Below, piece by piece: positions 3,528-14,560 of a DNA stretch of 64,000 nt. The notes under the pieces were generated by a model. It was not told where the DNA came from, searched no databases, and saw only the letters and a program-made list of their open reading frames with translations. Both the position numbers and the translations under genes were made by a program. The stretch is taken from NCBI GenBank assembly GCA_049287025.1, contig JBAQFA010000009.1:24802-88801 (forward strand), given 5' to 3'. Origin of the DNA: Candidatus Magasanikiibacteriota bacterium (GTDB taxonomy: Bacteria > Patescibacteriota > Patescibacteriia > Magasanikbacterales > UBA922). How positions within the stretch are numbered: the stretch's first letter is position 1; each line of letters starts with the position of its first letter.

Positions 3528-3828
3528 AATTAGAATGATGCTAATATACGAATTGTACTAATGATACTAATAATAATTTGTATAGCATCGGTATAATTCG
3601 TATGAATTAGTATATTAGAATCGCATTATTTTTTAAAGTGAACCTATTTTAGCACATAATTATTTATTAAAAAATGGCTTAAAAAAGGCAAAAAGTGTAC
3701 ATAATGGGGACAAGCTGTGGATTGTGGGGATAAGTCATATTTGGGTGGTATGAATTGGAAGTATCTTTCTCTTGACAAAATTCCTCAAATCAATTATAAT
3801 CCTCTCACTAATTATAAATAATAATTTT
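3528..3828. other. Putative oriC / dnaA promoter region
   Basis: This AT-rich, non-coding stretch lies upstream of dnaA. It holds the DnaA-box-like sites tgtggattg (3716-3724) and gtggggataa (3724-3733). The classical rpmH/dnaA divergent arrangement is present. Confidence 0.5.
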
Positions 3829-4005
3829 ATGCCAAAAAGAACTTACCAACCAAAGAAACGTAAGAGAGCCAAATGTCATGGTTTTTTGTCTCGCATGGAA
3901 ACTAGCAATGGTAGAAATGTATTAAAGAGACGTAGAGACAAAGGCAGAAAAAAATTGACTGTTAGCGATGAGAAAAAAGGCAAGAGAACTAGAAAGACTC
4001 GCTAA
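3829..4005 (+). CDS. rpmH: 50S ribosomal protein L34
   Basis: [23 protein letters not shown] is the canonical L34 N-terminus. I place the start at the internal ATG 3829 of ORF 3772..4005. The protein has an unusually long basic C-terminal tail. Confidence 0.9.
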
Positions 4006-4028
4006 AATTAGCCAAAAATATTAATAAA

Positions 4029-4052: not shown

Positions 4053-4071
4053 TGTTATACTTTAACTATAC

Positions 4072-4140
4072 GGATATCCAGATAATCCAGATTTGCAGAT
4101 ACTGCGATCCGTCAATCTGGATTATCAGTATATCTGGATA
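4072..4140. repeat. Imperfect inverted repeat upstream of rnpA
   Basis: ggatatccagataatccagatt (4072-4093) faces aatctggattatcagtatatctggata (4114-4140). It may be an operator or an RNA hairpin. Confidence 0.5.
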
Positions 4141-4157
4141 GTAAAATCGCCCAAAAT

Positions 4158-4795: not shown

Positions 4796-4820
4796 AAATG
4801 TACAGACTATTCTATACAAC

Positions 4821-4862
4821 TGTGGATAACTCTGGGGATAGAGTAACCAAAAAGTGGATAAC
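4821..4862. promoter_or_regulatory. DnaA boxes downstream of yidD
   Basis: There is a perfect box tgtggataa (4821-4829, reverse complement TTATCCACA). There is also gtggataac (4854-4862, the 8/9 box agtggataa at 4853-4861) and ggggatag in between. Confidence 0.5.
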
Positions 4863-4970
4863 ATTAGGTTTGAAAGCCTAATTTTTTATTTGTATAGGCT
4901 ACTCTATACATACTTATGCACAATTAAAATGGCTTATTTTAGCTAAATTTTGCTTATTTTAGCTAAACTA

Positions 4971-4999
4971 TTGACAAAAGTGGTATTTTATGCTATACT
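4971..4999 (+). promoter_or_regulatory. Sigma70-like promoter with extended -10
   Basis: TTGACA (4971-4976), a 17-nt spacer, then tgcTATACT (-10 at 4994-4999, TG at 4991-4992). No ORF lies downstream. Confidence 0.5.
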
Positions 5000-5005
5000 A
5001 TATTC

Positions 5006-5400
5006 AGTTCCTTCAAAATATAGATATGTTCGATTCGACTTTGTCGAATGGAGCATGTTTCCATCCACTGCTTTTTTACTAGGCTAACTCTTATGAATTT
5101 GTATAAAGTAATCTATACAAATTCCTTAAAACAAAAACAAAAGTTAAAAATGAGAGTAAAAGCTAGCCTAGACAGGTGACTCCCACCTTTCATGCATCAA
5201 GGGCTTCACAGCCACACTTGATGTCGGGAGCAAACACCGCCGAGTGGTGGAGGGAATTATACCGTCCCAGTATGACGGCTTGCCTAATCGGGCGTTCTAA
5301 GAGCTTAAAAATTTGAGATCTTGGATTGCCCGAGTGGCGCGTTTCTGGGATTTAAAGGTGGCACGCCACAAAATCACCGGGGCGATTGACCACCTTTTTT
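5006..5400 (+). ncRNA. Candidate structured non-coding RNA of unknown class
   Basis: This is a promoter-to-terminator unit with no ORF. The 3' half (about 5160-5400) is locally GC-rich, with hairpins accgtc/gacggt (5261-5278) and gtgg/ccac. The closing stem aaaggtgg...ccaccttt is followed by a T-run at 5394-5401. Confidence 0.35.
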
Positions 5401-5560
5401 TATTGCAAAAATACAGACTTACAAATAATCCGACTTAACGGGTGCCAAGCCATATGGATTGGGTTGAGTATTTAAATGTTGACTTTTAATTAACATATGA
5501 TATAATGACGTTCTTATAAATATGTGGTAAAATAAAAGCATATTTTGATTAAATACATAT

Positions 5561-5947
5561 ATGACCAAGACTAAATTTACAAAGACTTTTTTGGATGAAA
5601 TAAAGAAAAATTTATTAGAAGAGAAAATTCATCTGGAATCAGAATTAGAAAAATTTGCCAAGAAAAATTCTCATGCTGAGAATGATTATGATACCACTTT
5701 TCCAGAGTACGGTGATGAAGAGGATGAAAATGCTCGCGAAGTAGCTGATTATACGGCCAATAAACCACTAGAAATTTCTTTGGAAAATACTTTGCGTGAT
5801 GTGGTCAAATCTTTAAAAAGATTGGAAGATAATACTTATGGTTTTTGTAAGTATTGTGATAATCCAATTGAAGAAAAAAGATTATTGGCTCGTCCGACTT
5901 CTAGCGCGTGTGTAAGTTGTAAAAAAACACTAACACAAGAGGCTTAA
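5561..5947 (+). CDS. DksA/TraR-family C4 zinc-finger protein
   Basis: 128 aa with a coiled-coil N-terminus. The C-terminal zinc finger reads CKYCDNPI...ACVSCKK. A TTGACT / TGaTATAAT promoter lies at 5479-5506. Confidence 0.8.
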   Translation: MTKTKFTKTFLDEIKKNLLEEKIHLESELEKFAKKNSHAENDYDTTFPEYGDEEDENAREVADYTANKPLEISLENTLRDVVKSLKRLEDNTYGFCKYCDNPIEEKRLLARPTSSACVSCKKTLTQEA

Positions 5948-5997
5948 AGTAATCACGAATGCCATACGAATTAAACTAATTAATCACGAATTGTGAT

Positions 5998-6471
5998 TTG
6001 TATATGAAAAATAAAATCCACCTAACAATTTATATTGTAATCGGTGGATTTTTTTTATTGTTGGATCAGTTGTTAAAATATTTGGCGCGGACTAATTCTG
6101 ATTTTAGTTTTTATCTTTGGAAAAATTGGTTGGGCTGGGAATATTTCCCCAATCCTGGCATTGCTTTTTCTTTACCCGTACCAAATTGGTTAGTAGTTAT
6201 TTTTACGCCAATAATTTTATTAGGATTATTTATTTGGATAAGACGAACACATAACACATATCACATATCACATATCACAAGACAGTTATCACTATTTTTT
6301 ATTATTGCTGGGGCGGTTTCAAATTACATTGATCGCGTATTATTCGGTGTCACTATAGATTATATTCGTATTCTTACTGGGGTAATAAATTTGGCGGATG
6401 TGATGATTGTGGTGGGGGTAGGGTTGTTATTGTTGGATGAAAGATTGAAGAAAATTAATATTAAACTTTAA
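5998..6471 (+). CDS. lspA: Lipoprotein signal peptidase (signal peptidase II)
   Basis: It has four TM segments and the motifs NPGIAFS and IDYI...NLADVMI. The start is probably the ATG at 6004. Confidence 0.85.
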   Translation: MYMKNKIHLTIYIVIGGFFLLLDQLLKYLARTNSDFSFYLWKNWLGWEYFPNPGIAFSLPVPNWLVVIFTPIILLGLFIWIRRTHNTYHISHITRQLSLFFIIAGAVSNYIDRVLFGVTIDYIRILTGVINLADVMIVVGVGLLLLDERLKKINIKL

Positions 6472-10374: not shown

Positions 10375-12363
10375 ATGATTACGACATTGCTCGTACTTTT
10401 GCCAGCCTTGGCTGCCATACTTTATGGTGGAATTTTAATTGGCTGGATCAACAAACAGCCGGCCGGTTCAGAAAGAATGCAGGCCATTGCTAAGGCTATC
10501 CAAGAAGGCGCCAAAGCTTATCTCGGCAGACAATACAAGACTATTGCCATGGTGGCCGTAGTAGTATTTGTTTTGCTTTGGATTTTCTTAGGATTCAAAA
10601 CCGGTTTAGGTTTTGTGGTTGGGGCAACTTTTTCGGGAATTGCTGGTTATCTTGGTATGACTATTTCCGTCAAAGCCAATGTAAGGACAGCCGAAGCAGC
10701 CAAAAAAGGTTTTAAAGAAGCTTTGGACGTAGCCGTAAAAGGTGGTTCAATTACCGGCTTGTTAGTCGTGGGTTTGGGTTTGTTTGGAGTAGGAGCATTT
10801 TATTTAATTTTCAAAGATACTAATTCTTTAATTGGTTTAGCTTTTGGTGGTTCTCTAATTTCTATTTTTGCTCGTATTGGTGGCGGTATTTTTACCAAAG
10901 CCGCTGATGTTGGCGCTGACTTGGTCGGTAAAGTAGAAAAAGGTATTCCTGAAGATGATCCTCGCAATCCAGCGGTGATTGCTGATAATGTTGGCGACAA
11001 CGTCGGTGATTGTGCAGGTATGGCTGCTGACTTATTTGAAACTTATGCTGTGACAGCTGTAGCTGCTATGGTGCTTGGTGCCCTTACTTTTAAAGGTAAT
11101 GAAGAAGCAATTATTTTCCCATTAATCTTGGGTGGAATTTCTATTATTGGTTCAATCATCGGTACATTCTTTATTAGATTAGGCAAGACAAAAAATGTCA
11201 TGAATGCGCTTTATAAGGGTTTAGTTGTGTCGGGAGTTTTATCAATGATTGGTTTTTATTTTGCTAGTACAGTTTATAGTAAATATTTAAATTTAACAGT
11301 TAGTCAATTATTCTGGAGCGGTTTTATTGGTTTAGTTTTAACTGGTCTTATGGTTTGGATTACAGAGTATTATACCTCTACCAAATATGGTCCAGTAAAA
11401 AGTATTGCCAAAGCTTCTGAGACTGGTCATGGTACCAATGTGATTGCTGGTTTGGCTGTATCCATGAAAGCGACTGCTTTGCCAGTTCTATTCATTGCGG
11501 CTGCTATGCTTGGAGCTTATAGTTTGGCTGGTCTCTATGGTGTAGCTATTGCGGCTATGGCCATGTTGTCTATGACAGGAATTGTAGTGACAATTGATGC
11601 CTATGGTCCAATTACTGACAATGCTGGTGGTATTGCGGAAATGGCTGAGCTCGGTGATGAAGTGAGAGCAGTCACTGATCCATTAGATGCCGTTGGAAAT
11701 ACTACCAAAGCTGTGACAAAAGGTTATGCGATTGCCTCAGCTGCTCTGGCCGCTCTAGTTTTATTTGCCGATTACACTCACAAATTGGCTGAGAATGGTA
11801 TTTCTACAGTTTTTAGAATTGATGATCCAAAAGTTTTGGTTGGTTTGTTTATTGGTGGCTTACTGCCATATTTATTTGGTTCATTTTTAATGGAATCAGT
11901 TGGCAAGGTGGCGGGTAAAGTAGTAGAAGAAGTTCGTCGCCAGTTCAAAGAAATTGCGGGAATAATGGAAGGCAATGCCAAACCAGATTATGCCAAGTGT
12001 GTGGACATCGTAACCAAAGGAGCAATCGGTCAAATGGTTTTACCAGCTTTGATTCCAATAGTAGCACCGATTTTAGTTGGCCTAATTTTAGGACCAGCCG
12101 CTCTTGGTGGTTTATTGGTAGGTACAATCGTGACTGGTTTGTTTGTCGCAATTTCCATGACAGCGGGTGGTGGTGCTTGGGACAATGCCAAAAAATATAT
12201 TGAAAATGGTAATTACGGTGGCAAAGGATCTTTTGCTCACCAAGCGGCTGTTACAGGTGACACAGTTGGTGATCCATACAAAGATACTGCTGGTCCAGCC
12301 ATTAATCCGATGATTAAGGTGGCGAATATAGTTGCATTGTTGATTGTGGGGTTGTTGAAATAG
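10375..12363 (+). CDS. hppA: Membrane-bound H+/Na+-translocating pyrophosphatase
   Basis: 662 aa and polytopic. The motifs are [39 protein letters not shown] and [18 protein letters not shown]. Confidence 0.95.
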
Positions 12364-12413
12364 ACACGGATTATACGGAATTAAAGGATTATACGGAAAA
12401 TAAGAAAAATTAA

Positions 12414-12447
12414 AACACTCTGCTAAATTGGCAGGGTGTTTTTTTTG
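12414..12447 (+). terminator. Intrinsic terminator after hppA
   Basis: The stem acactctgc/gcagggtgt is followed by a T8 run. Confidence 0.7.
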
Positions 12448-12471
12448 TTTAACACTTTTTAAATCGTAAAC

Positions 12472-12500
12472 TTGACTTATCATATAAAATATAGTATAAA
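12472..12500 (+). promoter_or_regulatory. AT-rich promoter driving GC-rich cassette 1
   Basis: TTGACT (12472-12477), a 17-nt spacer, then TATAAA (12495-12500). ACTTGTTGTCTGTCG follows and resembles the CTTGTTCTGACG leader of the other cassettes. Confidence 0.45.
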
Positions 12501-12616
12501 TGTATGTCCGATAGACTTGTTGTCTGTCGTTTTGGTATATAAGGCAACTTTGCTTTGTTGTTGTGTGTGCTTGAGTGAACAACCATAATCCTTGGATGGG
12601 AGGTGAGACAGGGGAA

Positions 12617-13588
12617 ATGGCAAAGGATCTTTCGGAGAGAAAATTTCGAAGCACCGTGCGGTATGTGCGACGTCTATTGGGGGGTGGGACTGGTATTGTG
12701 ACTGCTCAACAGCTTCAGAAGGCTGGAAAACGAGCTCGCGGTCCTTTCTTTGACCCCAGAGACCATGGTCTGGTTCGTCCGTTCTTGGAGCGTGGAGCCG
12801 AAGAAGGACTCTGGGTGCTTGAGAACGGCGGTGGTCGGGCTGTCGTACCTGATGGTGTGTGGGAACAGTGGGATAGTCGTGGCGAGAGACGGCGTGAGGA
12901 ACGTCAGTCACAAGTTACGGCTCAAGCAGGAACCCGGCCAGCTTCAGTGCTGGCATCACTAGAGGAGGTCTCTATGACCGACGGTACGAAGAAGGGGGTG
13001 GGCGTATCCCCGAAAAATCCTATCTGGGTTTGGCTTCGGGCCAAGAAGGGTAGGTTGGGAGAGCTCATCGAGCTGTTCCAGGGGGTCCATGATGGTGCTC
13101 CGGTTCTCGCCAAGAAGGGTGGGGCTTTGAGTTTCCATTTTGCCCGCCCGCACCTAGTTCGGGGCCTGCAGAAGCTCGGGATGGAGCAGATCGACGATGG
13201 GTCAAAGATCCTGGCCACGGTCTTCTCCTACCTCGCCACGCCTGAGCAGGGGGTATTCGAGCGTGTGGGTTCTGGTGGGTACCCCCGCTACAAGCTCGGG
13301 CCGAAAGGGCAGAAGCTCTTGACCGAGGTCAGGAGCAGGGGCTCTGAGCCCATGCCACCGCCCGTTCCGTCCACGTCACCGACCGCTGCCCCCAGCCCGG
13401 GTGACCCGTTCGCCGAGGAGGAGGCCGCTCTCGTGGCCAAGCTCGAGGCGGTCCGTGCCAAACGCCGGCGCTTCATCGTGGTCGAGGACCTCGTGGTCAA
13501 GGCCATGAAGAAGGCCGGCATCGAGGGGACAGAGCAAGTTGAGTTCCTCAAGGCGCTCGTCAAAAAGCTCGGGGGTTCCTCCGAGTAG
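12617..13588 (+). CDS. GC-rich cassette ORF 1, unknown function (ORFan)
   Basis: This is a long ORF in a compositionally foreign block; the 60-nt line starting at 13321 contains 42 G+C. GGGAGGTGA lies upstream of the ATG at 12617, and the GTG at 12575 offered by the ORF track is unlikely. The protein has a Pro-rich linker and a C-terminal helical region. I recognise no family. Confidence 0.6.
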   Translation: MAKDLSERKFRSTVRYVRRLLGGGTGIVTAQQLQKAGKRARGPFFDPRDHGLVRPFLERGAEEGLWVLENGGGRAVVPDGVWEQWDSRGERRREERQSQVTAQAGTRPASVLASLEEVSMTDGTKKGVGVSPKNPIWVWLRAKKGRLGELIELFQGVHDGAPVLAKKGGALSFHFARPHLVRGLQKLGMEQIDDGSKILATVFSYLATPEQGVFERVGSGGYPRYKLGPKGQKLLTEVRSRGSEPMPPPVPSTSPTAAPSPGDPFAEEEAALVAKLEAVRAKRRRFIVVEDLVVKAMKKAGIEGTEQVEFLKALVKKLGGSSE

Positions 13589-13795
13589 TCAAATCTCTAG
13601 GCAGTCTTGACTGCCTACGACATCGTTCTTTCAACCTGTCCCGTTCGGGACACCAAAGTCAGGGAAGTGAGTATCACTCCACATCGGAGCGTACCTTCCC
13701 TGGCGCTCCATCAAAAGAACATCTCTAGTTAGGTGTTTTTTTGTTTAACATTGATTTTACAGATTTTAAAAAAGATTTTATTTTATAAAAATTAT

Positions 13796-14560
13796 TTATT
13801 TCAAACTGTTCCACAACATCTCCCAAACAAGACGTTGGTTATCAGCATTGGCTTGGTCTTCAATAATGACTAGGATCATACTCTCCCAAGAAACAGTCAT
13901 TACTCGATTGCCATAAATAACAGTGTGACTTTTGAATGATTTACCTTCGGGTAAAAATTTTACTTCACGTAATTCTTCTGTGGCACGTCTAGCTTCTAAA
14001 ATACCGGATTTGGATTTTTCCACAATTATTTTTGCTTTAACCCCTAATGAAATTCGTTCGTTGGTTAATTTTTTATACTCTTCTGGAAAAGTTGTTAATA
14101 GTTTTTCTGATGAACCATATACCAAATTTTCTTTTAGATTTACTTTGTGTCTAATCCTGTCTAGATAAGCATTCCATACATTTTTTCTACCCTCAAAATA
14201 TAATACTTTTGGTTTGTTGGCACCTTTGTTTTGTAAAGCCTCAAGTTCTGGTATTAGATCAGCAAAAAGTTGCTCTTTGTAACGAAGTGAATCCAAAAAT
14301 TTTTCTGGTTCCATGGCCACAAAATATCTTTTTCTGCCTTTGTTAACCACATTCATTAAGCCTTTAAGAATTAATTTTTCTATAATGTCGTATGTAGTTA
14401 CTCTATGTATGCCGGCTTTTTGAGCAATTGTCTGGACTGAAGCATGACCAAGCTCTAAGGTGGCTAAGTAAATTTCGGCCTCTTTGGCATCTAGACCAAA
14501 TTGTTGTAATTGATTAGGTAAAATCATAAAATGTTGTAGGAAAAGTTCTACATTTTTCAT
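13796..14560 (-). CDS. TrmB-family winged-helix transcriptional regulator (paralog 1)
   Basis: The N-terminal FGLDAKEAEIYLATLELGHASVQTIAQKAGIHRVTTYDIIEKLILKGL matches the TrmB wHTH pattern. The gene is low-GC. The start may be the internal Met at 14527. Confidence 0.8.
   Translation of the reverse strand: MKNVELFLQHFMILPNQLQQFGLDAKEAEIYLATLELGHASVQTIAQKAGIHRVTTYDIIEKLILKGLMNVVNKGRKRYFVAMEPEKFLDSLRYKEQLFADLIPELEALQNKGANKPKVLYFEGRKNVWNAYLDRIRHKVNLKENLVYGSSEKLLTTFPEEYKKLTNERISLGVKAKIIVEKSKSGILEARRATEELREVKFLPEGKSFKSHTVIYGNRVMTVSWESMILVIIEDQANADNQRLVWEMLWNSLK

What the first reader, a model, noticed from the sequence alone, without database searches (positions are those of the whole stretch)
4971..5400. 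ORF-free promoter-to-terminator unit (~400 nt) where yidC would be expected, with a GC-rich structured 3' half
Downstream of rpmH-rnpA-yidD, many bacteria encode yidC. This genome instead has a 760-bp non-coding gap. The gap contains a perfect DnaA box (4821-4829) and a tandem repeat of gcttattttagctaaa. It also contains a strong extended -10 promoter (4971-4999). A transcript-sized region from there ends in the hairpin aaaggtgg...ccaccttt followed by T7 (about 5354-5401). The 3' 240 nt are far more GC-rich than their surroundings. They show local hairpins and a duplicated CCGAGTGG word (5240-5247 and 5330-5337). The size and the location next to rnpA would fit RNase P RNA, tmRNA or 6S RNA. 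However, I cannot find their universal motifs, namely GAGGAAAGTCC and a T-loop followed by CCA.
Basis: partly seen in the sequence, partly recalled or inferred. Interest (0 to 1): 0.5.

Follow-up and report, generated by a model that had tools for sequence, protein, structure and literature searches.

The report
New structured RNA gene beside dksA
The gap holds a real gene for a roughly 395-base folded non-coding RNA that matches no described RNA family, is conserved across Candidatus Magasanikbacteria just upstream of a DksA-like gene, and has a strong promoter placed next to a conserved cluster of DnaA-binding sites.

Summary
Window 4971-5401 (+) is a promoter-to-terminator unit encoding a ~395-nt RNA with no conserved ORF. 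It is not RNase P RNA, tmRNA, 6S or SRP RNA: Rfam 15 gives only chance hits, ARAGORN finds nothing, and the fold does not fit those families.

Homologues occur in more than 55 Ca. Magasanikbacteria loci. All lie on the same strand immediately upstream of a dksA/traR-like gene and lspA, which have their own promoter. The upstream neighbour varies, so the rnpA/yidD/"missing yidC" context is incidental.

A 38-sequence alignment supports about eight helices, including two long-range helices that tie the AT-rich 5' half to the GC-rich 3' half. 90% of cells are paired against 41-50% in slid controls, and 71 of 83 pairs show compensatory changes.

All 40 loci where the promoter was located carry DnaA boxes at about -115/-150, a 21-fold enrichment. 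GC skew in two relatives shows this cluster is not the origin.

In this clade the 3' end also has competing pairings (Pe, C, X, terminator) that look like an attenuator.

Best reading: a new lineage-specific structured ncRNA gene, probably trans-acting and DnaA-controlled. A cis-acting attenuator of dksA-lspA is the main rival. Function is inferred, not shown.

The parts
4800..4970 (.). Conserved upstream control region. It holds DnaA boxes at 4821-4829 (perfect), 4853-4861 and 4914-4922 (one mismatch each), the inverted repeat TTTGTATAGGCTACTCTATACA at 4888-4911, and two copies of the TTTAGCTAAA palindrome motif at 4932-4967.
   Evidence: In all 40 relatives where the promoter was located, boxes lie about -95 to -200 from the -35 element: 7.3 per kb against 0.35 per kb background. 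The inverted-repeat motif occurs only twice in the 64 kb window.
4971..4999 (+). Promoter of the RNA gene: TTGACA, 17 nt, TG-n-TATACT (extended -10). The predicted start is about 5006.
   Evidence: Nearly the same promoter (TTGACAAAA...TGTGCTATACT) is found 160-220 nt upstream of the conserved 3' domain in 39 of 40 distinct homologues.
5006..5401 (+). The RNA, about 395 nt from predicted start to the end of the U-run.
   Evidence: Fold z = -10. Homologues found by nhmmer and by covariance model in more than 55 loci. Consensus structure with covariation. No conserved ORF.
5028..5054 (+). Hairpin Pa (5028-5038 pairs with 5044-5054). It follows the conserved unpaired 5' tail GUUCCUUCAAAA (5007-5018).
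   Evidence: helix 1: 8 of 9 pairs show changes on both sides. No consistent partner was found for the 5' tail.
5060..5255 (+). Long-range helix A (5060-5072 pairs with 5243-5255). It closes a three-way junction and contains the invariant core ACUGC/GUGGU (family consensus ACUAC/GUGGU) with an invariant U.G pair.
   Evidence: helix 2: 13 pairs, 91% of cells paired, 7 with compensatory change.
5077..5173 (+). Long-range helix B (5077-5092 pairs with 5158-5173). It encloses a variable hairpin (5097-5122, a second copy of the inverted-repeat motif) and the single-stranded A/C-rich tract AAAACAAAAACAAAAGUUAAAA (5128-5149).
   Evidence: helix 3: all 13 pairs covary (for example UUCGAGCU/AGCUCGAA and UUUCGGACU/AGUCCGAAA). 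The A-rich tract is conserved. It sits at the 5' end in L094 and is absent in the short variants.
5175..5238 (+). Hairpin Pc. Closing pairs GGUG/CACC (5175-5178 with 5235-5238), then UCCC/GGGA, an internal loop, and an apical stem (5194-5199 with 5219-5224).
   Evidence: helices 4-6. GGU/ACC changes to GGC/GCC in two of the 38 sequences; from reading the alignment these are L117 and L090.
5264..5351 (+). Helix C (GUCCCA 5264-5269 pairs with UGGGAU 5346-5351). It encloses the variable hairpin Pd (5288-5308 with 5313-5333). A competing local hairpin Pe is CCGUC/GACGG (5262-5279).
   Evidence: helices 7-9. From reading the alignment, C covaries as GUCGU/ACGAC, GUUAC/GUAAC and AGCCA/UGGCU. Cognate against non-cognate duplex energy is -11.1 against -7.9 kcal/mol.
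5341..5401 (+). 3' platform: an intrinsic terminator (5355-5367 pairs with 5381-5396, then U7). An alternative hairpin X forms when CUGGGAUUU (5344-5353) pairs with the terminator loop AAAUCACCGG (5370-5380).
   Evidence: Terminator: helices 10-12. X: (permutation p about 0.001 for the variable part). X is absent in about 10 divergent members.
5479..5506 (+). Separate promoter of the downstream operon (TTGACT, 16 nt, TATAAT with TG).
   Evidence: A TTGCCAAA-N17-TATAAT element lies between the RNA terminator and the dksA-like start codon in most relatives.
5561..6471 (+). The constant downstream neighbours: a DksA/TraR-type zinc-finger protein (5561-5947, 128 aa) and lipoprotein signal peptidase LspA (5998-6471).
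   Evidence: Pfam zf-dskA_traR and Peptidase_A8. 579 homologues with E <= 1e-5; the listed hits that carry a source name are Magasanikbacteria.

Best explanation
Window 5006-5401 (+) is a stand-alone gene for a stable, highly structured non-coding RNA of about 395 nt. It is the first described member of a lineage-specific family of Ca. Magasanikbacteria (candidate phyla radiation).

Shown:
- It has its own near-consensus extended -10 promoter and its own intrinsic terminator.
- Its fold is conserved by compensatory substitutions: hairpin Pa; a three-way junction of long-range helices A and B with hairpin Pc; helix C enclosing the variable hairpin Pd; and a terminator hairpin.
- It is single-copy.
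- It always lies directly upstream of, and co-oriented with, a separately promoted dksA-like-lspA operon.
- Its promoter is always preceded by a cluster of DnaA boxes that is not the replication origin.

Inferred:
- The RNA is made at a high level under control of DnaA occupancy, that is, replication or growth status.
- It works mainly in trans as a protein-binding scaffold or regulator. The sequence-invariant part of helix A, the junction and, in most members, an exposed A/C-rich single strand would be the recognition surfaces.
- In the clade that includes this genome, the 3' end carries a cascade of mutually exclusive pairings (Pe, C, X, terminator). This could also let a fraction of transcripts read through into dksA-lspA.
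For: - Independent unit: promoter, terminator, and a second conserved promoter between the terminator and the dksA-like gene.
- Promoter conservation in 39 of 40 homologues.
- Structure: RNAalifold finds 48 pairs, 39 of them with compensatory change. For the curated 83-pair structure, 90.1% of cells are paired against 41-50% when slid, 71 pairs show double changes, and the covariation score is 0.416 against 0.09-0.14 (slid) and 0.216 (shuffled, 0 of 500 reaching it).
- Strand: z = -10 on the + strand against -2.4 on the minus strand.
- Family size and synteny: nhmmer finds full-length hits in 38 of 61 dksA loci with enough upstream sequence. Covariance model R1 hits 54 of 80 dksA loci and gives one hit in the window. 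Most remaining loci carry a divergent subfamily with the same promoter, helices and terminator layout.
- The upstream neighbour varies.
- No conserved ORF.
- No Rfam family. No phage or plasmid match. No paper found.
- DnaA boxes: 7.3 per kb against 0.35 per kb, in 40 of 40 loci where the promoter was located. The cluster is not the origin: GC skew has the same sign on both sides in L163 and L166, and no dnaA lies within 10 kb in L166.
Against: - There are no expression data, so promoter, transcript ends and stability are predictions.
- Only the downstream neighbour is fixed, which is what a cis-regulatory leader would show.
- The competing 3' pairings resemble an anti-terminator and terminator.
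- Two relatives (L131, L157) keep the strong promoter, the first bases and a mini-terminator in front of dksA without the RNA body. That hints that upstream transcription itself matters for dksA.
- The A-rich tract and helix B are dispensable in some members.
- No partner protein or target has been identified.
- Complementarity to the dksA 5' UTR is no better than in non-cognate controls.
Confidence: 0.5

Rival explanations
1. A cis-acting transcription attenuator (a riboswitch-like or protein- or RNA-sensing leader). The large 5' domain (Pa, A, B, Pc) senses a signal and decides between hairpin Pe and helix C. That choice decides between anti-terminator X and the terminator. The result gates read-through from a strong, DnaA-linked promoter into dksA-like-lspA.
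For: - The position immediately upstream of the dksA-like gene, on the same strand, is invariant while the upstream gene varies.
- Four consecutive mutually exclusive pairings exist. Reading the sequences used, L123 and L149 show linked changes in all three partners of the shared segment (CCUUA / UAAGG / CUUAGG).
- X is predicted in about 28 of 38 members, and it would form before the terminator's 3' arm is transcribed.
- Cognate complementarity of the variable part exceeds non-cognate (p about 0.001).
- The promoter plus mini-terminator is retained in front of dksA where the RNA body is lost.
Against: - A conserved promoter (TTGCCA-N17-TATAAT) lies between the terminator and the gene.
- The spacer varies from about 55 to 260 nt and takes up repeat insertions.
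- X and Pe are missing in the divergent members and in the second subfamily, while the core fold persists.
- No known aptamer or T-box matches. The T-box UGGN is GGCGG in most members.
- The promoter strength and size are more typical of a stable RNA gene.
Confidence: 0.3
2. A very divergent version of a universal housekeeping RNA: RNase P RNA, tmRNA, 6S RNA or SRP RNA.
For: - The size fits RNase P RNA or tmRNA, and the promoter is strong.
- RNase P RNAs of candidate phyla radiation bacteria are known to be diverged and sometimes score below Rfam cut-offs (PMC8172020).
- No RNase P, tmRNA, SRP or 6S gene was detected anywhere in the 64 kb window.
- There is local resemblance to RNase P strings in this one sequence (GAGCAAAC-ACCGCCGAGUGG, GGAGGGAA...GUCCC).
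Against: - No hit at E<=10 on 406 nt.
- No CR-I or CR-V and no interleaved P2/P4 pairing. The resembling strings lie inside helices Pc and A and are not conserved in relatives.
- The 5' and 3' ends do not pair.
- ARAGORN is negative, and there is no T-arm/CCA end and no tag ORF.
- The multi-branched fold is incompatible with the 6S hairpin and with the SRP domain IV motif.
- Some lineages reduce or lose the RNA, which would be unexpected for an essential RNA.
Confidence: 0.06
3. An origin-associated transcript. The DnaA-box cluster would be oriC, and the strong outward transcription, or the RNA itself as in ColE1 RNA II, would help open or prime the origin.
For: DnaA boxes, AT-rich repeats and inverted repeats lie directly upstream. 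In the window the unit lies within about 3 kb of the GC-skew switch and of dnaA.
Against: - In L163 and L166 the GC skew keeps the same sign for 10 kb on both sides of the RNA gene, and L166 has no dnaA within 10 kb.
- Only 9 of 80 dnaA loci have the RNA within 7 kb.
- Separate DnaA-box clusters lie next to dnaA and between dnaA and dnaN.
- The orientation of upstream genes is mixed.
Confidence: 0.04
4. A small protein-coding gene or genes hidden in the gap.
For: Mechanical ORFs of 30-46 aa exist on the + strand.
Against: ORF starts, ends and frames are not conserved among 38 homologues. Substitutions are compensatory in stems, and insertions and deletions fall in helix tips.
Confidence: 0.01

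Closest known systems
Orphan large structured bacterial ncRNAs (raiA motif RNA, OLE, ROOL, GOLLD, HEARO)
   Same: A lineage-restricted, several-hundred-nucleotide RNA with many covarying helices and invariant junction nucleotides. It has its own promoter and terminator, a conserved gene neighbourhood and no known function. raiA likewise sits upstream of, but is independent from, a fixed neighbour gene (my own knowledge of that literature).
   Different: There is no sequence or structure match to any of them in Rfam 15. The host lineage differs (candidate phyla radiation). The fold differs, and so does the neighbour (dksA-like-lspA). The promoter is attached to a DnaA-box cluster.
6S RNA and mycobacterial Ms1 (abundant RNA-polymerase-binding regulatory RNAs)
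   Same: Likely abundant, strongly promoted, stand-alone structured RNA. No 6S gene was detected in the 64 kb window, which covers only part of the genome. It is adjacent to a factor of the RNA polymerase secondary-channel family. Ms1 shows that such RNAs need not look like 6S (my own knowledge).
   Different: There is no 6S-type long hairpin with a central bubble. The RNA is twice the size of 6S. There is no Rfam 6S or Ms1 match. Binding to RNA polymerase is untested.
Transcription attenuators: T-box leaders, riboswitch expression platforms and the trp-type 1:2/2:3/3:4 hairpin cascade
   Same: A chain of mutually exclusive hairpins ends in an intrinsic terminator, and a large structured domain lies upstream. 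The size is similar to T-box leaders. In Bacillus subtilis the T-box-controlled ileS lies just upstream of ylyA (dksA-like)-lspA (my own knowledge).
   Different: A conserved promoter separates it from the gene. There is no T-box or other known aptamer signature. The switch elements are absent from part of the family.
Bacterial RNase P RNA
   Same: Size of about 400 nt, a strong promoter and a GC-rich core in an AT-rich genome. Its neighbour in this one genome is rnpA.
   Different: It has none of the defining elements (CR-I and CR-V forming P4, P1 between the ends, P2/P4 knot). There is no Rfam hit. The linkage to rnpA is not conserved.
DnaA-box clusters outside oriC that control promoters or DnaA activity (Bacillus subtilis DnaA-box clusters; E. 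coli datA and DARS; DnaA-regulated promoters such as dnaA, nrdAB and mioC)
   Same: Two to six closely spaced consensus DnaA boxes lie at a fixed distance from a promoter and away from the origin.
   Different: Here the controlled unit is a structured ncRNA gene, and the boxes are flanked by a lineage-specific inverted repeat. Regulation by DnaA is inferred, not shown.

Membership tests
Bacterial RNase P RNA (Rfam RF00010/RF00011) | Match to the covariance model | tested here: not met
   No hit at the gathering score in 64 kb, nor at E<=10 on 921 nt or 406 nt. Caveat: candidate phyla radiation members can score very low (PMC8172020).
Bacterial RNase P RNA (Rfam RF00010/RF00011) | CR-I (GAGGAAAGUCC) and CR-V (ACAGAAnnCGGCUUA) forming the P4 pseudoknot, interleaved with P2 | tested here: not met
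   No CR-V string in any of 168 sources. CR-I-like strings are chance or lie in helix B (L043). The covariation-supported helices are all nested.
Bacterial RNase P RNA (Rfam RF00010/RF00011) | P1 helix between the 5' and 3' ends | tested here: not met
   The 5' tail has no consistent partner. The 3' end is an intrinsic terminator.
tmRNA | Detection by ARAGORN or Rfam; a tRNA-like domain with T-arm and an acceptor end ...CCA | tested here: not met
   ARAGORN finds 8 tRNAs and no tmRNA. Rfam gives none. The T-arm/CCA pattern is absent from all loci.
tmRNA | A conserved tag reading frame | tested here: not met
   No ORF is conserved in position or frame.
6S RNA | A single long irregular hairpin of about 180-200 nt with a large central bubble; Rfam 6S models | tested here: not met
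   No Rfam hit. The fold is multi-branched, with a three-way junction and two further domains.
6S RNA | Binding to the RNA polymerase holoenzyme and product-RNA synthesis | not testable with these tools
   This needs biochemistry.
SRP RNA (small or large bacterial type) | Domain IV helix 8 motif with a GNRA loop and conserved symmetric and asymmetric loops; Rfam models | tested here: not met
   No Rfam hit. The apical loops of Pc and Pd are variable.
T-box leader or known riboswitch | Match to a known aptamer or T-box model; a conserved UGGN bulge | tested here: not met
   No hit at E<=10. The window's GGUGG is GGCGG in most members.
Transcription attenuator (generic) | Mutually exclusive anti-terminator and terminator | tested here: inconclusive
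   The alternative hairpin X is predicted in about 28 of 38 members. Cognate energy is -9.3 against -7.7 non-cognate, and the variable part gives p about 0.001. X is absent in divergent members.
Transcription attenuator (generic) | It is the 5' leader of the regulated gene, with no promoter in between | tested here: not met
   A conserved TTGCCA-N17-TATAAT promoter lies between the terminator and the dksA-like gene in most loci.
Group I intron or intron-split tRNA gene (common in Patescibacteria, PMC13011429) | RF00028 core with a P3/P7 pseudoknot; flanking tRNA halves | tested here: not met
   No RF00028 hit. No tRNA-like ends were seen by ARAGORN or by reading the alignment. All supported helices are nested.
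Known orphan large ncRNAs (raiA, OLE, ROOL, GOLLD, HEARO) | Match to the family's Rfam model | tested here: not met
   No hits.
Chromosomal replication origin (oriC) element | A DnaA-box cluster located at the GC-skew switch | tested here: not met
   The skew keeps its sign across the locus in L163 and L166. Separate clusters lie at dnaA and between dnaA and dnaN.

The most novel reading that the evidence does not exclude
The RNA is a DnaA-controlled, RNA-polymerase-directed regulatory RNA. It would be a functional counterpart of 6S or Ms1 in a lineage where no 6S RNA has been identified, and it would act together with the adjacent DksA-like secondary-channel factor. Replication-initiation status, read through the DnaA boxes, would then be passed on to global transcription. 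Its built-in 3' switch would additionally set dksA-lspA expression.
Probability: 0.1. Interest if true: 0.85.

Novelty: categorically new. Interest (0 to 1): 0.66.

Why it matters
Large structured bacterial RNAs with strong covariation and no known function are rare, and several have led to new biology. This one comes from the candidate phyla radiation, where almost nothing is known about regulatory RNA.

It comes with concrete handles for experiments. There is a defined gene with a predicted start and end, and a testable eight-helix fold with an invariant core. The partner locus is fixed: a DksA-like RNA polymerase factor and LspA. The promoter is tied to DnaA boxes, and a candidate termination switch is present.

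The result also corrects annotation practice. A GC-rich island in an AT-rich candidate phyla radiation intergenic region next to rnpA is not automatically RNase P RNA. The covariance model built here could annotate hundreds of metagenome-assembled genomes.

Tried and rejected
- Rfam at the gathering score and at E<=10 on two nested ranges gave only chance hits to snoRNA, miRNA and sRNA models.
- ARAGORN found no tmRNA.
- String searches for RNase P CR-I and CR-V, the tmRNA T-arm/CCA end and the SRP motif in all 1.5 Mb fetched found nothing relevant. The one CR-I-like string inside a homologue (L043) is the 3' strand of helix B.
- The local resemblance of the window sequence to the RNase P J11/12-P12 region and to the T-box sequence was rejected. 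Those bases lie in covarying helices and are not conserved.
- A pairing partner for the conserved 5' tail was not found consistently.
- An all-against-all column covariation scan gave no further stacked helix beyond the curated set. Isolated high-scoring pairs look like phylogenetic noise.
- The origin hypothesis was rejected from GC skew and gene context in L163 and L166 and from the separate clusters at dnaA. Upstream gene orientation was uninformative, 15 against 17.
- Antisense pairing of the RNA with the dksA 5' UTR gave no cognate advantage. A first attempt timed out.
- A mobile-element origin is unsupported: no similarity in phage or plasmid collections.
- The group I intron or split-tRNA idea from PMC13011429 has no support (and Rfam).
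- Eight literature searches found no description.
- Distribution outside Magasanikbacteria and the presence of canonical rnpB, ssrA, ffs and ssrS in the same genomes could not be tested.
Full report
**What is there**

The window comes from a Candidatus Magasanikbacteria genome of the candidate phyla radiation. Its DnaA is 100% identical to that of MAG UBA11710.

The local gene order is dnaN(-), dnaA(-), rpmH, rnpA, yidD, a 765-bp gap, a DksA/TraR-type zinc-finger gene, and lspA.

- A perfect DnaA box at 4821-4829, plus two one-mismatch boxes.
- The repeated GCTTATTTTAGCTAAA motif at 4932 and 4952.
- TTGACA-17-TGcTATACT at 4971-4999.
- A G+C island at 5150-5400, 48-56% against about 30%.
- The hairpin AAGGUGG...CCACCUU followed by U7 at 5355-5401.

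The + strand of 5006-5405 folds far better than shuffles (z = -10.0). The minus strand of the 3' half does not (z = -2.4).

Rfam 15 finds only tRNAs in the 64 kb window at gathering scores. At E<=10 on 921 nt and on 406 nt it returns only chance hits to snoRNA, miRNA and sRNA models. ARAGORN finds no tmRNA.

One paper reports that RNase P RNAs of candidate phyla radiation bacteria can fall below Rfam thresholds (PMC8172020). I therefore also tested the defining anatomy. There is no CR-I/CR-V pair, no pairing between the 5' and 3' ends, and no interleaved P2/P4 helices.

**Relatives**

A genome scan with DnaA gave 80 Magasanikbacteria loci. nhmmer with the 3' domain found homologues in only a few of them.

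In every case the RNA lay 75-160 nt upstream of a dksA-like gene followed by lspA, on the same strand. The upstream gene differed: yidD, a hypothetical gene after dnaN, or a ~375-aa ORF with a GTPase-like N-terminus that I read as YchF, a name not verified by a family search.

A metagenome scan with an alignment of the DksA-like protein gave 80 more loci. Results on those loci:
- Iterated nhmmer found the RNA upstream of the gene in 38 of the 61 loci that had enough upstream sequence.
- A covariance model of the core, R1, hit 54 of 80 loci. It gave exactly one hit in the window, at 5058-5259.
- Most remaining loci carry a more divergent subfamily with the same promoter, about 330-360 nt and a terminator. 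It shares the Pc closing pairs and a B-like helix. From reading the alignment it also has an A-rich loop and the linker plus GCGGUUGGGGG strand.
- Three loci (L131, L144, L157) lack the RNA body. L131 and L157 still keep the strong promoter, the first bases and a mini hairpin with a U-run.

The link to rnpA, yidD and a 'missing yidC' is therefore incidental. The link to dksA-like-lspA is the conserved one.

**Transcription unit**

In 39 of 40 distinct homologues, a near-consensus promoter (TTGACAAAA...TGTGCTATACT) lies 160-220 nt upstream of the conserved G+C-rich domain. This gives RNAs of 311-489 nt. The AT-rich 5' half is therefore part of the RNA.

Between the terminator and the dksA-like start codon, most loci have a second conserved promoter, TTGCCAAA-N17-TATAAT. 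In the window this is TTGACT-16-TGaTATAAT at 5479-5506. The spacer varies from about 55 to 260 nt and picks up short repeats. The RNA is thus an independent gene.

**Structure**

On a MAFFT alignment of 38 full-length members, RNAalifold predicts hairpin Pa, two long-range helices (A and B), hairpin Pc and the terminator. 39 of its 48 pairs show compensatory changes.

I added helix C and hairpin Pd from a column-pair scan. The resulting 83-pair nested structure scores as follows:

| Measure | Structure | Slid 1-3 columns | Shuffled |
|---|---|---|---|
| Cells paired | 90.1% | 41-50% | 77.5% |
| Pairs with changes on both sides | 71 of 83 | 28-42 of 83 | about 46 |
| Cells with changes on both sides | 439 | 76-126 | about 138 |
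| Covariation score | 0.416 | 0.09-0.14 | 0.216 (0 of 500 shuffles reach the observed value) |

Window coordinates of the helices:

| Element | Coordinates |
|---|---|
| Pa | 5028-5038 with 5044-5054 |
| A | 5060-5072 with 5243-5255 |
| B | 5077-5092 with 5158-5173 |
| Pc | 5175-5184 with 5226-5238; apical stem 5194-5199 with 5219-5224 |
| C | 5264-5269 with 5346-5351 |
| Pd | 5288-5308 with 5313-5333 |
| Terminator | 5355-5367 with 5381-5396, then U7 |

Helices A, B and Pc form a three-way junction.

The core of helix A (ACUAC/GUGGU in the family consensus) is invariant in sequence, including a U.G pair present in all 38 sequences.

Helix B closes a loop that holds a variable hairpin and a conserved single-stranded A/C-rich tract, AAAACAAAAAYAAAAG (window 5128-5149). 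That tract sits at the 5' end in L094. It is lost together with helix B in short variants such as L099.

No ORF is conserved.

**A possible switch at the 3' end**

The segment CCUGGGAU plus the next 5-7 nt (window 5341-5354) can pair in two ways. It can pair with GUCCCAG to form helix C. Alternatively it can pair with the loop of the terminator to form a hairpin, X, whose own loop is the terminator's 5' arm. X and the terminator cannot coexist sterically, which is my inference from connecting loops of 0-3 nt.

The 5' strand of C is itself competed for by a local hairpin, Pe (CCGUC...GACGG, 5262-5279). Read from the alignment, Pe covaries as CUGUC/GACAG, CCGUU/AACGG and CAUCC/GGAUG.

The logic would run as follows:
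- Pe formed, so no C, so X forms, so no terminator: read-through.
- Pe open, so C forms, so no X, so the terminator forms: termination.

Support for this:
- Reading the sequences used, L123 and L149 change all three partners of the shared segment together.
- Cognate duplexes are more stable than non-cognate ones:

| Pairing | Cognate (kcal/mol) | Non-cognate (kcal/mol) |
|---|---|---|
| C | -11.1 | -7.9 |
| X | -9.3 | -7.7 |

- The variable part of X is more complementary in cognate pairs (permutation p about 0.001, not corrected for phylogeny).

Against it, X and Pe are absent from about ten divergent members and from the second subfamily. The switch is therefore an elaboration in one clade and not a defining feature of the family.

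**The promoter is attached to DnaA boxes**

In all 40 loci where the RNA promoter could be located, the 400 nt upstream contain 1-6 DnaA boxes with at most one mismatch. They typically lie at about -147 and -115 from the -35 element. The density is 7.3 per kb against 0.35 per kb in the rest of the loci.

The boxes are flanked by an inverted repeat, TTTGTATAC-N-CTATACAAA, and by a GGCTAA..TTAGCC / TTTAGCTAAA palindrome.

In the window the GC-skew switch lies at about 2-4 kb, next to dnaA. The cluster could therefore have been part of oriC. In relatives it is not:
- L163 and L166 show the same skew sign for 10 kb on both sides of the RNA gene.
- L166 has no dnaA within 10 kb.
- Only 9 of 80 dnaA loci have the RNA within 7 kb.
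- Separate box clusters, without the inverted repeat, lie upstream of dnaA and between dnaA and dnaN.

I conclude that this is a non-origin DnaA-box cluster serving the RNA promoter. Regulation by DnaA is inferred and has not been shown.

**What it most likely is and does**

Shown: an independent, single-copy, structurally constrained RNA gene with a conserved promoter, terminator, neighbour and DnaA-box cluster.

Inferred, about 0.5: a stable trans-acting RNA, serving as a scaffold or regulator, whose synthesis follows DnaA status.

The main rival, about 0.3, is a cis-acting attenuator of dksA-lspA. It is favoured by the one-sided synteny, the hairpin cascade and the promoter-terminator remnants in RNA-less relatives. 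It is disfavoured by the intervening conserved promoter, the variable spacer and the absence of the switch in part of the family. The two readings are not mutually exclusive.

The remaining rivals are unlikely: a divergent housekeeping RNA (about 0.06), an origin transcript (about 0.04) and a micro-protein (about 0.01).

Pairing with the dksA 5' UTR is not supported.

**Novelty**

There is no Rfam family, no phage or plasmid similarity, and no paper in eight full-text searches. By the membership tests it belongs to none of the families considered.

In kind it resembles the orphan large ncRNAs such as raiA and OLE.

It is a new family. Its function remains to be established, and its range outside Magasanikbacteria is untested.

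Noticed in passing
window 5097-5122 and 4888-4911: The motif TGTATA-N8-TATACA occurs only twice in 64 kb: once upstream of the RNA promoter and once as the variable hairpin inside the RNA (loop of helix B). Several relatives (L003, L004, L133, L152) also carry it inside the RNA. It could be an operator present at three sites, or a small mobile palindrome.
   Followed up: partly
L131:2301-3000 and L157:360-1059: Two relatives without the RNA body keep the strong TTGACA...TGTGTTATACT promoter, the GUUCAU-type start and a short hairpin with a U-run directly in front of the dksA-like gene's own -10 element.
   Followed up: partly
window 6248-6279 (inside lspA, 5998-6471): A tandem heptamer, CACATAT x 4.6 at 96% identity, lies within the lspA reading frame. 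A 7-nt period is not a multiple of three, so copy-number slippage would shift the frame.
   Followed up: no
window 4066-4145: Between the rpmH terminator and rnpA lies a set of ATCCAGAT / ATCTGGAT direct and inverted repeats. Similar short repeated words (TACGGAT, TACTAAT, TACGAAT) fill the spacer between the RNA terminator and the dksA promoter in many relatives.
   Followed up: no
window 3534-3618: Tandem 9-mers (AATGATACT x 4.8) and 10-mers (GTATAATTA x 3.1) lie immediately upstream of the dnaA start in the dnaA-rpmH divergent region. Three one-mismatch DnaA boxes lie in the dnaN-dnaA spacer at 1942-2127. This is the probable oriC region.
   Followed up: partly
window 12001-14000: A 2-kb stretch with 49% G+C stands out in a genome of about 35% G+C. 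It overlaps ORFs at 10375-12363(+) and 12575-13588(+). It may be foreign or unusually constrained DNA.
   Followed up: no
L094:181-300: This member lacks helix B but carries the A/C-rich tract (AAAAAAUAAAAACAAAAGUAAA) near its 5' end instead. This suggests the tract is a position-independent functional module.
   Followed up: partly
window 4001-4012: The palindromic word GCTAAAATTAGC, found upstream of the RNA promoter in many relatives, also occurs at the 3' end of rpmH in the window.
   Followed up: no
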